This document shows, one piece after another, positions 25,370-38,048 of a DNA stretch of 64,000 bases. The stretch is from Mobula hypostoma. Its lineage: Eukaryota. Position numbers and translations under genes: made by a program. The stretch covers positions 170,192,001 through 170,256,000 of the forward strand of contig NC_086097.1 of assembly GCF_963921235.1 (NCBI RefSeq), in the 5' to 3' direction. Numbering within the stretch: position 1 is the first letter of the stretch; every line of letters begins with the position of its first letter. The notes under the pieces are model-generated. The model saw only the letters and a program-made list of their open reading frames with translations, made no database searches and had not been told where the DNA came from.

Positions 25370-25586
25370 CAACAGGAATTCTGCAGATGCTGGAAATTCA
25401 AGCAACACACATCAAAGTTTCTGGTGAACGCAGCAGGCCAGGCAGCATCTCTAGAAAGAGGTGCAGTCGATGTTTCAGGCTGAGACCCTTCGTCAGACGA
25501 AGGGTCTCGGCCTGAAACGTCGACTGCACCTCTTCCTAGAGATGCTGCCTGGCCTGCTGCGTTCACCAGCAACTTTGATGTGTGTT
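25370..25586. mobile_element. Penelope inverted pseudo-LTR insertion (91-bp arms plus 34-nt tail)
   Basis: Arms 25404-25494 and 25496-25586; TSD TA(T/C)GGGAGTTGGGAT at 25355-25369 and 25586-25600. Confidence 0.9.
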
Positions 25587-27499
25587 ACGGGAGTTGGGAT
25601 GTTATGTTGAAATTGTATAAGACATTGCTGAGGTATAATTTGGAGTATTGTGTCCAGTTTTCATCACCTACCTGTAGAAAAGATGTAAATAAAATCGAAA
25701 AATGCAGAAGAAAATGACAAGGATGTTGCAGGACTTAAGGACCTGAGTTATAAGGAAGGGTTGAATAGGTTAGGACTTCATCCCTTAGAATATAGAAGAC
25801 TGAGGGGAGACTTGACACAAGTTTACAAAATTATGAGGGGTATAGATAGGGTATAAGTAGGCTTTTTCCACTGAGGTTGGGTGAGACTATAACTTGAGGT
25901 CATAGGTTAAGGGTGAAAGGTGAAATATTTAGGGGGAGGATGAAGGGTAACTTGTTTACTCAGAGTGTTATGAGAGTGTAATGAGCTGCCACCGTAAGTG
26001 GTGGATACAGAGTTGATTTCAACATTGATGAGAAATTTGGATAAGTGCATAGATGGTAGGGGTATAGAGGGCTATGGTCTGGGTGCAGGTCGATGGGATT
26101 GGGCAAATTAATGGTTCAGCATGGACTAGGAGCGCGGAAGGGTATGCTCCTGTGTTGTAGTGTTCTATGACTCTATGGCTCTATAACCTAACCATCTGGT
26201 ATAGAGGGGCCACTGCACAGGATTGGAAAAAGCTGAAGAAATTCAGCCAGCTTCATCATGGACATTATATACTGTGTATATATATTGCATCATATTGTAA
26301 TTTATAGATCTTAGTATTATGTTTTGCAATTTACTGCTGCCACGAAGCAACATATTTCATAACATATGCCAGTGACATTAAACCTAATTGTGATTGAGTC
26401 AGATTATCTCCTCCTCAACATATTGCTGTCTTTGGGATCTTGCTGTGTGGAACTTCAGAAGAAATTCATTAGCTGTGAATCATAATGGGAGAGGCTGCTA
26501 TGGAAATGCACATCTTTTCTTTAAACTTTCTTGCAAACATTGGGAAGACCTTTAGTGCTGTGAAATACAATGTACCTGCTGCATCCATTGCCAAGTTAAA
26601 CTGAAGCAACCAAACAGCAGATGGTAACCCAAGTGCAAATAATCAGTATGATGATTGTAAAATTATACTTTGAGTACTTCCATCCCAGAACCAGTTTCAA
26701 TCAAAGGTCAACATCATTTCTCTGAAACACGCTGTTTGTCCTTTCAGTCATCTGCAACTGCATTCTGAAACACCTCTTCTTATAATGACGTTTGATCATC
26801 TCCATGACAACCATTCATCAAACATGCAGGGTGCTGCATTCTTGATTGTCTCTATAGAGATAGCTTAGTTTCATATGAAGACCTTCTGGAAAGTTGGTGA
26901 AAAATGAAAGCAGGGCACATCTTCACATACTCCAGGCTGGTAAATTAATACCTGTTAAAATCTAAAAAATAAATTCCATATTTGAGGGTTGGCTTTGTAC
27001 CAAGCTGAGGTTAAGTAGTTCAAATTAATTGTATCTAATGTTTACAATGGCTTCATTCATCATGTTACAAAGTGCACGACAATGCAAATATCACAGGTAG
27101 TGATCTCTGTTTGAAGGGAATAAATCTTTGCTTCTTTGAAAAGGAGGCAAATAATCCTTTTGGGCTCTTGGGGACCAATTTCTTTGGCTTAGCCATGGAT
27201 TGCAAGGGCAGAGAAGTCCAAGGTGTATCAGACACCAGCTGGGCCATAAATGGAGTACTCTATCCAGTTCTCTTCATTGTGTTGTGGTTCTGGGTGCAGA
27301 AATATGTGAGTATGTTGCAGGGGCATCAGAGTTATAATTATAGAAGAGTATCTTAAAGTTGCAAACAAGGAGACTGAGTGGAGAGTTGATTGTGGAGTAC
27401 AGGCCAATGAGGTGACTAGAATGTACATTAATGTACATCAATGAGATGTACAGGAAGGACACGTTGCCCTCAGCAAAGATGTCACTACTCAGGAGTTGT

Positions 27500-33870: not shown

Positions 33871-34586
33871 AAAGGAATAAATTTATTAACATCACATTTA
33901 CCTCTATACTTCCCACTGTGCAGTATTAAATATCCAGTTTGCCCTAGAATTGGGATACTTTACATTCCTGCAACTAGGGATGTTCCCAAACTAATGCAAT
34001 CTCCTTTTGCATCATTGTACCATTGGTGCATGTGCTTATGTATAAGATATCAATAAACCATTTATTTTTATTTTATTTATTCATTTTTCAGGATGTGTGC
34101 ATCACTGGCAAATCGGCATTTACTGTGAATCATGAATTATCTCTGAATAAAGTGACTTGAAGGTCATTTAAGAGGCAACCAAGTTGCTGAGGATGGTTCA
34201 CAGCAAACATTCTATTGGACAGACTTGGCAGGTCATGCAGCGTTTGAGTGGGGAAATGAATTGTTGATGTTTTGGGTCAAAACCGAACCCTGATGCAGGG
34301 TTTCAAGCTGAAACATTGACAATCCTTGATAAAGTTACATTTGTGTACATTCACAGTGCAACTTCCACTGAATTATTAATATTCCTCCCCTTTTCCATCA
34401 GATTTCTGAACACTTCACAAATCCATGAACATTATCACATTATTCCTTTTTGTACACTATTTTTGCAATTTATTGTAATTTATTGTCTTTCCTTAAGGTT
34501 GTTATAGCTGGGGGTGGTAATAGGGATAAGTTCCCACCACCTATATAATGCTCCCAATGGTGTGAACCTCAAATACGTAACAAAAT

Positions 34587-34620
34587 TGGGGGCTTGTCTG
34601 GGATTTGAACTCGGTACCTC
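34587..34620 (-). other. Copy of the 3' 34 nt of mature tRNA-Pro including CCA (extended PBS), inverted relative to the adjacent LTR
   Basis: The plus strand TGGGGGCTTGTCTGGGATTTGAACTCGGTACCTC versus the tRNA-Pro complement TGGGGGCTCGTCCGGGATTTGAACCCGGGACCTC matches at 30/34. Confidence 0.85.
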
Positions 34621-36071
34621 GTAATGGGTTTAAAGAACCAGCAGAAATAGAACACACCTGGAGTCTGCTATTGCTGTTAACCAAAGCTATTTTATTAGTA
34701 ACTACATAATAATAATAATATAAAACCAGATCAATCAAACAGGTTAGCAGAACTTTTGCATATACAGGTGCATAAATATATAACCCAAACTTCTTCAAGC
34801 TTGGGGGGTAATTGGATACAGTCTTATGATGGTATGTAAGCAAAGTCAGTTCAGTTCATGATATTTAGTTGAGTAGAATTGAGGAGAGAGAGAGAGGTAT
34901 TTAGTTCTCCGGGTAAGCCGATGCTGTCAATCCACCATTGTCCTCCGAAAACCTTTAAAGTCACTGAATGAGGCCACAAGAAGGAGACTGTCTTCTGTGG
35001 TAAAGCTGTCAACCCAGGCAAGGGTTGGACACACTGATAACTTCTCACCGGTCACCCCTTTTCCACACTGTGAGAACTACTGATTGATTCTCCCGATTGA
35101 TCCTCCAAAACCCACCCTTCTGTGGGCACACAAAGCTCATCCAGTGTCCGAATCTGTGTGTGTGTCATTCCACACATGAAGTATCACTGACAGTGATCTT
35201 CAATGAATATCCTTTCAACACAAGTGGTACCACACCCGAATTCAACTATGGGACATCTCAAAGTGGTGACCATAAGATACTCCAACAGAATCCACATATG
35301 GATTATCACCAACAGAAGCTTATCACAAAGGTACCATCTTCAAGTGGTAAAACTACTAACCCAGGCAAGGATTATCACACACAGGTAGTTTCCATACAAG
35401 GTTACCCCAAACACACAACGTGATAGCCACTTATCCAGTTCCACGACATATGAATTAACTCCAACGGTGATTTGCCACAGGGGTGTCTTTCTTCAGTGAA
35501 CTACCACACCCAAACAAAGCATAAATACACACGTGGTATTCACAAAGGTTTTCACCTCACCAGAGAATCCACTCTTGTGGATTAACTAAGTGACAATCAC
35601 ACCTTCGTATTTGAATGGAACTCAAACTCACCCTTACGGGCTACTTAGGAGAGAGTCCAAACAGTGACCTCTTTGTTACTAGGTTTCTACTGTTTCAAAC
35701 CTCCCTCTCCCCTCTGCAAACTTCTTCTGGTTGCAGTACTTGTGACAGTCGTTTATCAATACTCTGGATTGATCTCAACTCACCCCTGTTGGGCTACTGA
35801 AAGTTTAAACCAGGACCTCACTCACTGGTGTCTTTCATTGATCGAATCCATCTTGACTCTGAGCATGTGTTTCTCTGTTTCTGTAACTGTCCTTGTAAAA
35901 AGTAAGCATGCTGCAGAGAAACCATAACATCAATTGTCCATCAAATAATTCCATCTGTCTCTCTCTCCCTCTCTCTGGTACAGCTCAAACAGTGTCCAAA
36001 TGTCTGTCTCATTGTCCAGATGTTTTAAAGTAACAGTCCACAGAAAATATGAACACTAGGGGTACATGACA
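34614..36071 (-). mobile_element. Long LTR (~1.45 kb) of a tRNA-Pro-primed LTR element
   Basis: 5' end TGTCATGTACCCC (36071). The 3' end AATAAAA...CAGACTCCA...ATTTCTGCTGGTT...ACCCATTACGAGGTAC is homologous to the U5 end of the LTR at 47627-48488. Confidence 0.8.
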
Positions 36072-36410
36072 GTTACCTTGGTCTTTTTTGGTACAGGAAC
36101 AATGGTGGATAACTTGAAGCAGGAGGGCACTCTACACTGGGAGAGGGAGAGATTAAAAATGTCTGCAAACACACCTGCCAGTTGTGCTGCGCACATCCAG
36201 AGTACTCGCTTTGGGATGCTATCTGGTCCCGCAGCCTTGCGACTGTCCACTCGTTGAAAACATCTGCATGCCTCAGCCTCAGAGATGACGAGGTTGCAGG
36301 TTGTAGCGGTGGATTTCCTCGGAGGCTCAGATTTAGTGACATCGAACCTAGCATAAAAGCGATTGAGCTCATCTTGGAGAGAGGCCGCGTCATGCGGAGC
36401 ATGCCGTGAA
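36072..36410 (-). mobile_element. Rex1/Babar internal fragment
   Basis: RKAAGPDSIP...QLAGVFADIFNLSL...VPSCFKLSTIVPVPKK. Confidence 0.88.
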
Positions 36411-37004: not shown

Positions 37005-38048
37005 TCACAAGGATGCGTGCTTAGCCCACTGCTCTACTTTCTCTAGATTCACGTCTGTGTGCCAGATGGAACCTATAAATTCACAACTATTGTTGGCACA
37101 ATCCCAGTTGGTGAATGAGGAAGCGTACAAGAGTGAGACAGATCAGCTGGTTGAGTGGTGTTGCAACAACTACCTTGAACTCTGCGTCAGTAAGACCAAG
37201 GAATTTATTGTGGGCTTCAAAAAGGGAGAACATGTCATGCCTGACTGAAGGAGTCAGCAGTGGAAAGAGTGAGCAGCTTCAATTTCCTGAGCTTCAACAT
37301 CTCAGAGGATCTATCCTGAGCCTAAAATATTAATGTATTCATGAAGGAAGCACACGGGCAGCTATACTTTATTACGAGCTTCAGAAGATCTGGTACGTCA
37401 CCAATGTACCGTGGAGAACATTCTGAGTGGTTGAATCACCACCTGGTATGTAGGCTCCAATCATGGGGCACCCTCACTATTTAGTCATTAGATAGACACT
37501 CTCTTGATATTACTGCCGTCAGGAAGGAGGTACAGGAGCCTAAAGGAGCACATTCAACATTTTAGGGAAAGCATCTTCCCTTTTGTCATTATTTTCCATT
37601 AATCCATAAATACTGAACCCATTAACCCATTAACACAGAACAGTCCAAGCCTATAAACACAGAACAGTCCGAGCCCATAAACACTGAACAGTCTGAGCCC
37701 ATAAACACTGAACAGTCCTAGCCCACAAATACTGAACCCATGAACCCATAAACGTTGAACAGTTTGAGCCCATAAACACAGAACAGTCCGAGCCCGTAAA
37801 CACTGAACAGTCCTAGCCCACAAATACTGAACCCATGAACCTATATACATTGAATAGTCTGAGCCCATAAACACTGAACAGTGTGAGCCCATAAACATGG
37901 CCTCACTATTTTGTTCACTTTTTGCAGTATTTATTTATTTTTATGTATTTCTTATTGTATTTAAAACAATTCTTTATATCTTTCACTGTACTGTTGCCAC
38001 AAAACAAGTTTCACAACATTTGTACATGATAATAAGCCTGATTCCTGA
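37005..38048 (+). mobile_element. Rex1/Babar 3' portion containing a minisatellite
   Basis: QGCVLSPLLY, LVEWCCNNYLELCVSKTKEFIVGFKK; tail AATAAGCCTGATTCCTGA. Confidence 0.8.
37603..37897 (+). repeat. 24-bp minisatellite (CCCATAAACACTGAACAGTCYGAG) with periodic 15+8-nt variants
   Basis: About nine full units and three variant blocks read directly. Confidence 0.95.

What the first reader, a model, noticed from the sequence alone, without database searches (positions are those of the whole stretch)
34574..34640. LTR end fused to tRNA-Pro 3' half plus the first cDNA bases: apparent fossil reverse-transcription intermediate
Seen: on the minus strand the LTR U5 runs ...ACCCATTAC-GAGGTAC. Instead of finishing GTAACA plus PBS, it continues CGAGTTCAAATCCCAGACAAGCCCCCA (sense tRNA-Pro T-arm, acceptor stem and CCA). 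It then reads ATTTTGTTACGTA, the complement of the missing LTR tip. The tRNA match is 34 nt (30/34); the last 7 nt are shared with U5. Established: a PBS is normally 18 nt because RT stops at m1A58, and CCA is added post-transcriptionally. Inference: RT read through the primer, and a template switch at the microhomology GAGGT(A/C)C between U5 and tRNA inverted the segment. The missing TSD and unmatched flanks suggest non-integrase insertion or a later deletion.
Basis: partly seen in the sequence, partly recalled or inferred. Interest (0 to 1): 0.75.

Follow-up and report, generated by a model that had tools for sequence, protein, structure and literature searches.

The report
Fossil of tRNA primer read-through
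A dead jumping gene's end repeat is fused to a DNA copy of the back half of a proline tRNA and a flipped piece of its own tip, and about 27 similar fusions lie elsewhere in the same genome; they are likely fossils of copying errors in which the enzyme ran too far into its tRNA primer, and some appear to record chemical marks the tRNA carried long ago.

Summary
Real, but not unique. The letters are as described (30/34 to the genome's tRNA-Pro plus CCA) and short-read contigs bridge both junctions. The LTR belongs to a Gypsy family with integrase before RT (Gmr1-like). Correction: ordinary members already match the tRNA over 23 of 24 nt, so this copy adds only 10 nt, 7 shared with U5; alone it is modest evidence. 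The genome supplies the rest: about 27 independent tRNA-Pro read-through copies in several LTR families, reaching up to the tRNA's 5' end. Five of 10 from this family carry an inverted element copy right at the tRNA piece, as here. Three read the anticodon GGG, which no gene hit has (inosine-34 signature), and 5 of 26 end at position 38, next to G37. Best reading: plus-strand synthesis overran the tRNA stop, could not transfer, folded back onto U5 and was inserted; one arm and host DNA were lost. Precedent: MMLV circle and HIV provirus with a copied tRNA; nine paper searches found no germline catalogue. The scan's notes on two other genomes hold similar ideas (untested). Dead by-product, new variant of a known error.

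The parts
34614..36071 (-). LTR (1458 bp) of a Gmr1-like Gypsy family; starts at TG, lacks the last 6 nt of U5
   Evidence: BLAST to genomic copies; nearest copies 88-92% identical without gaps; domain order of relatives
34614..34620 (.). 7 nt shared by U5 and tRNA-Pro positions 43-49 (junction microhomology, imperfect to both parents)
34611..34613 (+). 3 nt that only the tRNA explains (positions 52-50, 2 of 3 match)
34605..34610 (+). T opposite A58 plus TGAAC (positions 57-53): primer over-extension sequence, native to the family; T at this place is rare in native copies (4 of 43) and present in 6 of 6 extended copies
34587..34604 (+). [quoted passage not shown]
34574..34586 (+). Short arm: U5 tip (7-9 nt) and AAAT linker, in the family's native order before the PBS
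34489..34575 (+). Left flank: first 87 nt of a multi-copy repeat, cut at the junction with 2 nt (TA) shared with the tip
36072..36389 (-). Right flank: piece of a multi-copy LINE-like repeat cut at the LTR start; its continuation is not in the window
   Evidence: LINE label recalled, not tested

Best explanation
The locus is an LTR joined to the 3' 34 nt of tRNA-Pro with CCA and to an inverted copy of its own tip, and it is likely the remnant of a failed reverse transcript in which RT overran the stop on its tRNA primer, the stranded end likely folded back onto U5, and one arm was likely lost at or after insertion. Steps: (1) tRNA-Pro primes this family (shown: PBS in 54 junctions). (2) Plus-strand strong-stop synthesis copied past A58 and past the family's 24-nt match (shown for sister copies, inferred here from few bases). 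(3) The over-long 3' end could not complete the second strand transfer (established for HIV-1; inferred here). (4) It primed on U5 at a 5-6 of 7 nt match and copied the LTR back to its TG start, giving an inverted duplication around the tRNA piece (architecture shown in 5 of 10 family copies; the fold-back itself inferred). (5) The product entered the germ line; one arm was cut to 7-9 nt and host DNA was deleted, either by host repair of a hairpin end during one-ended integration or by later collapse of the palindrome (inferred; the two are not separated). It has no predicted function.
For: Junctions bridged by contigs with 0 differences. 28 of 45 hits of the tRNA 3'-half pattern end in CCA or one change from it; the other 17 are genes or gene-like copies without CCA. 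With two more, and dropping two doubtful rows (L137, L141) and one duplicate (L131), about 27 independent copies remain. [quoted passage not shown] Inverted element copy directly at the tRNA piece: window, L031, L155, L158, L138 (5 of 10 family copies), also L125 and L159. T opposite A58 in 6 of 6 extended versus 4 of 43 native copies (Fisher p 1.5e-5; 7e-5 without the window). Anticodon GGG in 3 of 10 clear copies, AGG in 0 of 10, while 12 of 23 genomic hits are AGG and the only GGG hit is L138 itself. 5 of 26 ends at position 38. No TSD here, against 4 of 10 exact 4-bp duplications at other LTR copies.
Against: At this locus only 3 nt plus the T at 58 are tRNA-specific, and one of the three mismatches. 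The junction 7-mer needs one extra change under a simple switch (the same 7-mer occurs as a U5 variant in 1 of 93 rows, some of them noise). The short arm is too short to show that both arms came from one molecule. The pile at position 38 is p 2e-4 for that position alone but p 0.05 for any position under a constant drop-off, and ends were assigned by hand. L129 may read AGG with a 1-nt gap. In L031, L125, L155 and L159 the join lies at or just past the LTR tip, not at the window's microhomology. L138 and L155 have opposite polarity to their main element, so which strand was made first is not settled.
Confidence: 0.72

Rival explanations
1. Read-through happened, the copy was inserted un-inverted (as L036), and the 40-nt segment flipped later in the chromosome between the two 7-nt inverted matches, followed by a deletion at the far end.
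For: Un-inverted read-through copies exist (L036, L129, L149). The 7-nt inverted match is present.
Against: A clean flip would leave the reciprocal bases at the far end; they are absent and the flank is a truncated repeat, so a second event is needed. Sister copies show inversions with joins that lack this match.
Confidence: 0.1
2. No read-through at this locus: a native 5' LTR end with its 24-nt primer match was flipped or re-joined with 3 filler bases, and the tRNA likeness of the last 10 nt is chance plus U5.
For: 24 of the 34 nt are native and 7 more are U5; one of the remaining three mismatches the tRNA.
Against: T at 58 is in only 4 of 43 native copies; the break falls exactly where native leader and tRNA part; 2 of 3 filler bases and the A in the 7-mer are tRNA-type; no native flip of this kind was seen among the 43 native junctions, of which flanks were read for those in the first 30 rows.
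Confidence: 0.08
3. [quoted passage not shown]
For: In L031, L125, L155 and L159 the join is at or within a few bases past the LTR tip, where a linear cDNA ends. L138 reads 5' LTR, internal region, polypurine tract, then tRNA sense and inverted LTR. Colicelli and Goff's model keeps the primer attached (as cited in PMC12220202).
Against: The window's join lies 6 nt inside U5 at a microhomology. L037 jumps from tRNA into pol in sense, a strand-transfer error by RT.
Confidence: 0.08
4. Assembly artefact or chance likeness.
For: The supporting runs may be the assembled sample, and are contigs, not raw reads.
Against: Both junctions bridged with 0 differences; the piece is 12% diverged from tRNA like the LTR from its kin (8-12%), which a sequencing chimera would not be; reversed-pattern control 0 hits.
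Confidence: 0.02

Closest known systems
MMLV circular DNA with tRNA-Gly between the LTRs (Colicelli and Goff 1986, seen only as cited in PMC12220202) and HIV-1 MN provirus with a CCA-ended tRNA-Gly copy at the 3' LTR (PMC12220202, abstract and passages)
   Same: A DNA copy of a mature, CCA-ended tRNA joined to the U5 end, with deletions nearby.
   Different: There single clones in culture with a non-cognate tRNA and no inverted LTR; here the cognate primer, germ line, about 27 copies in several families, often with an inverted element copy.
Over-extended plus-strand strong-stop DNA of HIV-1, stops at m1A58, Psi55, m5U54 and position 37 (PMC8599865 discussion and passages; PMC13191261 passages; PMC11251516 passages for tRNA-Pro m1A58)
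   Same: Copying past A58; a further stop next to position 37; products past 54 cannot complete strand transfer.
   Different: Those papers model such products as not integrated; here they are fixed in a chromosome. The position-37 base would be m1G in tRNA-Pro (PMC13191261 states it for C-starting codons and E. coli tRNA-Pro; not measured in this animal).
Primer over-extension sequence of lentiviruses and spumaviruses (PMC13191261 passage; PMC8599865 Fig. 6 legend and text)
   Same: Native complementarity continues past the 18-nt PBS to about position 54/53.
   Different: Here in a Gypsy family, with the base opposite A58 taking all four letters (31 A, 6 C, 4 T, 2 G of 43).
Gmr1-clade Ty3/gypsy elements (PMC8220671 passage: integrase upstream of RT)
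   Same: Relatives L160/L161 have integrase, then RT, then RNase H, with Gypsy-type Pfam domains.
   Different: No tree was built; the window holds only the LTR.
Aberrant retroviral integrations with host deletions (PMC5041404, abstract); Ty1 cDNA intermediates captured at breaks (PMC11372161, passages)
   Same: One precise end, no TSD, rearranged host flank; replication intermediates entering chromosomes.
   Different: What I read of them does not describe tRNA copies or fold-back LTRs.
Tailless tRNA retropseudogenes (PMC5322556, listing only) and Helenus TRIMs (PMC10886601, passages)
   Same: tRNA-derived DNA made by or lying in retroelements.
   Different: Helenus carries a tRNA-like promoter inside its LTRs that is unrelated to its PBS; here the tRNA piece is the 3' half with CCA, continuous with the PBS, and not amplified as a family.

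Membership tests
Gmr1-like Ty3/gypsy LTR element | LTR with TG...CA ends and 4-5 bp TSD in normal copies | tested here: met
   4 of 10 exact 4-bp TSD, 2 of 10 with 3 of 4; the window itself has none
Gmr1-like Ty3/gypsy LTR element | Integrase upstream of RT and RNase H | tested here: met
   L160: Integrase_H2C2 (25.1 bits, just under cut-off), RVT_1, RT_RNaseH_2 in that order; L161: Integrase_H2C2 and rve over cut-off after gag-position ORFs. Their LTRs are about 70-80% like the window's
Gmr1-like Ty3/gypsy LTR element | RT groups with Gmr1 in a tree | not tested
   no reference sequences fetched
Over-extended plus-strand strong-stop product | tRNA complement continuous with the PBS beyond the native match | tested here: met
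   10 nt at 8 of 10 in the window; up to about 50 nt in sister copies
Over-extended plus-strand strong-stop product | Template is mature tRNA (CCA, editing, no intron) | tested here: inconclusive
   Window: CCA is part of any PBS and the piece stops before the anticodon. Class: GGG anticodon in 3 of 10 copies, none among gene hits
Over-extended plus-strand strong-stop product | PBS follows a 3' LTR (preceded by the polypurine tract) | tested here: inconclusive
   Window keeps only 7-9 nt of that arm; met in L138 and L158
Normal integrase-made provirus or solo LTR | Both ends intact, TSD, matching flanks | tested here: not met
tRNA gene or tRNA-derived SINE/TRIM family | Whole cloverleaf or promoter boxes; many copies with the same junction | tested here: not met
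   ARAGORN 0 genes in window; junction single-copy
Shared insertion in a related species | Junction or empty site in another species | tested here: inconclusive
   Organism B contigs match the flank (7 differences, 1 gap in 267) and an LTR part (2 in 147) but none listed bridges the junction

The most novel reading that the evidence does not exclude
Animal genomes hold a fossil tRNA-sequencing record: LTR-element reverse transcripts that overran their primer were integrated in the germ line at a measurable rate (6 of 54 PBS junctions of this pattern), often as fold-back palindromes, and preserve ancient modification marks (I34 read as G, stops beside m1G37, four-letter variation opposite m1A58). 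They would let one read past germ-line tRNA modification and RT stop behaviour from sequence alone, and would be a source of tRNA-LTR chimeras.
Probability: 0.5. Interest if true: 0.65.

Novelty: new variant of a known kind. Interest (0 to 1): 0.46.

Why it matters
The single locus is dead DNA. The class matters more: current models say products copied past tRNA position 54 cannot finish strand transfer or integrate, yet here they were fixed in a germ line many times. If the GGG anticodons and the ends at position 38 hold up across primers and species, these fossils give an in vivo, dated read-out of where a retrotransposon RT stops on modified tRNA, and show a route by which tRNA halves become fused to LTRs.

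Tried and rejected
ARAGORN on the window: no tRNA gene. Rfam tRNA search of the genome gave 60 unnamed rows and was not used. Search for the continuation of either flank repeat in the window: none; neighbouring DNA outside the window was not searched. Organism B runs X5, X6, X7, X9 (one sample): no listed contig bridges the junction at 93% likeness; a hole proves nothing. Idea that the L031 second tip is the start of a second LTR (circle junction): rejected, it is the U5 tip in reverse. Idea that the junction was amplified as a family: rejected. RT hits in L161 (5163-7514) look like inserted LINE pieces and were not used for domain order. Automatic inverted-repeat test missed arms under about 20 nt, so arms were judged by homology to intact relatives. 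The native tally of 45 is biased towards T at 58 by the query; the counts given come. Ends at 38 could also come from the 3' exon of intron-bearing tRNA-Pro genes, which begins there; not excluded. Nine paper searches found no genomic catalogue of such copies; most subscription papers, including Colicelli and Goff 1986, are outside the library, and no supplements were read.

Full report
Observation. Read on the + strand the region is: a repeat cut short (34489-34575), the U5 tip of an LTR (34574-34582), AAAT, an 18-nt tRNA-Pro PBS (34587-34604), 16 more bases that follow the tRNA, and then a 1458-bp LTR in the opposite direction (34614-36071) that lacks its last 6 nt. Against a tRNA-Pro gene of this genome plus CCA the match is 30 of 34. 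Contigs from runs X1 and X3, one sample that may be the assembled one, cross both junctions with no difference (34501-34609, 34581-34666, 34581-34698). The window lies at G000:C1:170192001-170256000 of a 3.48-Gb genome.

The element. The LTR end had 2990 first-look candidates, 40 scored. The nearest copies are 88-92% identical without gaps, about as far as the tRNA piece is from tRNA (4 of 34). Two-LTR relatives with the same PBS (L160, L161; LTRs about 70-80% like the window's) carry integrase before RT and RNase H, the order described for Gmr1-type Gypsy elements (PMC8220671, passage); no tree was made. Other LTR copies have 4-bp target duplications (4 of 10 exact, 2 of 10 with one change); the window has none. 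Both flanks are multi-copy repeats cut at the junctions, and neither continuation is in the window, so host DNA was lost or rearranged.

A pattern that left the 12 bases after the PBS free found 54 junctions: 43 native, 6 extended along the tRNA, 5 other. Native copies do not carry the whole match, so the refuting case is not met. But they carry more than 18 nt: after one variable base (31 A, 6 C, 4 T, 2 G) they match positions 57-53. This is the counterpart of the primer over-extension sequence of lentiviruses (PMC13191261 and PMC8599865). The window's own extension is thus 10 nt at 8 of 10, seven of them shared with U5. What is tRNA-specific is three bases (two match), the T opposite A58 (6 of 6 extended, 4 of 43 native; Fisher p 1.5e-5), and a break exactly where leader and tRNA part. 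The shared 7-mer is a mix that a single crossover does not give unless the parent LTR had a rare variant (1 of 93 rows, some noise) or a mismatch was repaired. The locus alone is therefore likely, not certain.

The class. A pattern for the tRNA 3' half with CCA gave 45 hits, 0 in the reversed control. Seventeen are genes or gene-like copies without CCA; 28 end in CCA or one change from it, nearly all followed by a short linker and a TG-starting LTR-like tip read in reverse. I drop L141 (diverged) and L137 (no LTR tip), count L130/L131 once, and add L031 and L186: about 27 independent copies, a lower bound. Ten have this family's LTR before the PBS; the rest belong to other tips. [quoted passage not shown] Five of the ten (window, L031, L138, L155, L158) have an inverted copy of the element directly at the tRNA piece, with arms from 7-9 nt to over 1 kb; L125 and L159 show the same in other families. 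L155 reads 5' LTR, PBS, leader, a deletion, U5 tip, PBS, tRNA, inverted LTR; L138 has the opposite polarity, and its inverted LTR is 89-95% like its own 5' LTR. The window's exact junction is single-copy.

Signs of a mature, modified template. Ten copies pass the anticodon clearly: 5 TGG, 2 CGG-type, 3 GGG, 0 AGG; L130/131 may add a GGG and L129 may be an AGG with a gap. Of 23 genomic hits over the anticodon arm 12 are AGG and the only GGG is L138 itself (intron-bearing genes are not caught, and those seen read AGG, CGG or TGG). That inosine-34 is copied as G is recalled; a reference title in PMC11251516 names inosine in eukaryotic tRNA-Pro. Five of 26 hand-assigned ends fall at position 38 and eight at 37-39 (this set kept L137); p is 2e-4 for that position under a flat model but 0.05 for any position under constant drop-off. 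A block at m1G37 fits; so does a 3' exon of intron-bearing tRNA-Pro, which starts at 38. The window's piece ends before the anticodon and shows neither mark.

Mechanism. Best reading (0.72): RT overran A58 and the native 24-nt match; the 3' end could not pair for the second transfer (PMC8599865 discussion); it primed on U5 at the partial match and copied the LTR back to its TG start; the hairpin or palindrome was inserted, and one arm plus host DNA was lost, by repair at a one-ended integration (PMC5041404, abstract, for host deletions) or later. Rivals: a later flip in the chromosome (0.10), a native end flipped with filler (0.08), end-joining of a still attached tRNA without fold-back priming (0.08), artefact (0.02). 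Organism B shares the flank and an LTR part but no listed contig bridges the junction, so age and empty site stay open.

Known and new. A copied CCA-ended tRNA at an LTR end is known from an MMLV circle and an HIV provirus (PMC12220202, abstract and passages), and over-extension products with stops at 58, 55, 54 and 37 are known from HIV-1. Nine searches of the open library showed no genomic catalogue of germ-line copies with inverted arms or modification marks; subscription papers were not searched. Two earlier scan notes on other genomes voice similar ideas (untested); the notes for this genome concerned self-priming elements. Verdict: real, dead, a new variant of a known error; interest 0.46, carried by the class rather than by this copy.

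Noticed in passing
54 PBS junctions, (L039-L068 and 24 unfetched rows): Native copies match tRNA-Pro to position 53, and the base opposite A58 takes all four letters (31 A, 6 C, 4 T, 2 G of 43) while its neighbours are nearly fixed: likely repeated misreading of m1A58 passed on through strand transfer.
   Followed up: partly
L037 (G000:C50:25726655 +): LTR, PBS, 3 more tRNA bases, then a direct jump to the end of pol, polypurine tract and 3' LTR: looks like a second-strand transfer to the wrong place that deleted almost the whole inside.
   Followed up: partly
L123 and L134 (G000:C5): The tRNA complement turns at position 39 into the tRNA's own sense anticodon loop, a turn inside the anticodon stem, in two copies of another LTR family.
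   Followed up: no
L186 (G000:C12:186020910 -): tRNA copy that skips from positions 51-53 to 35-37 (GGG to GGG) and runs on towards the 5' end.
   Followed up: no
L159 (G000:C52:20349289 +): About 100-nt insert of three 17-nt LTR-tip units around a tRNA half, flanked by a 4-bp duplication inside a LINE-like repeat.
   Followed up: partly
L109-L122 (C64, C66, C80, C90, C116): Intron-containing tRNA-Pro genes (about 17-20 nt intron after position 37), which ARAGORN in bacterial mode names as other tRNAs.
   Followed up: no
window 25395-25595: Inverted repeat with 100-nt arms, 92% complementary, 1 nt apart.
   Followed up: no
window 37626-37897: 24-nt tandem array, 11.4 copies.
   Followed up: no
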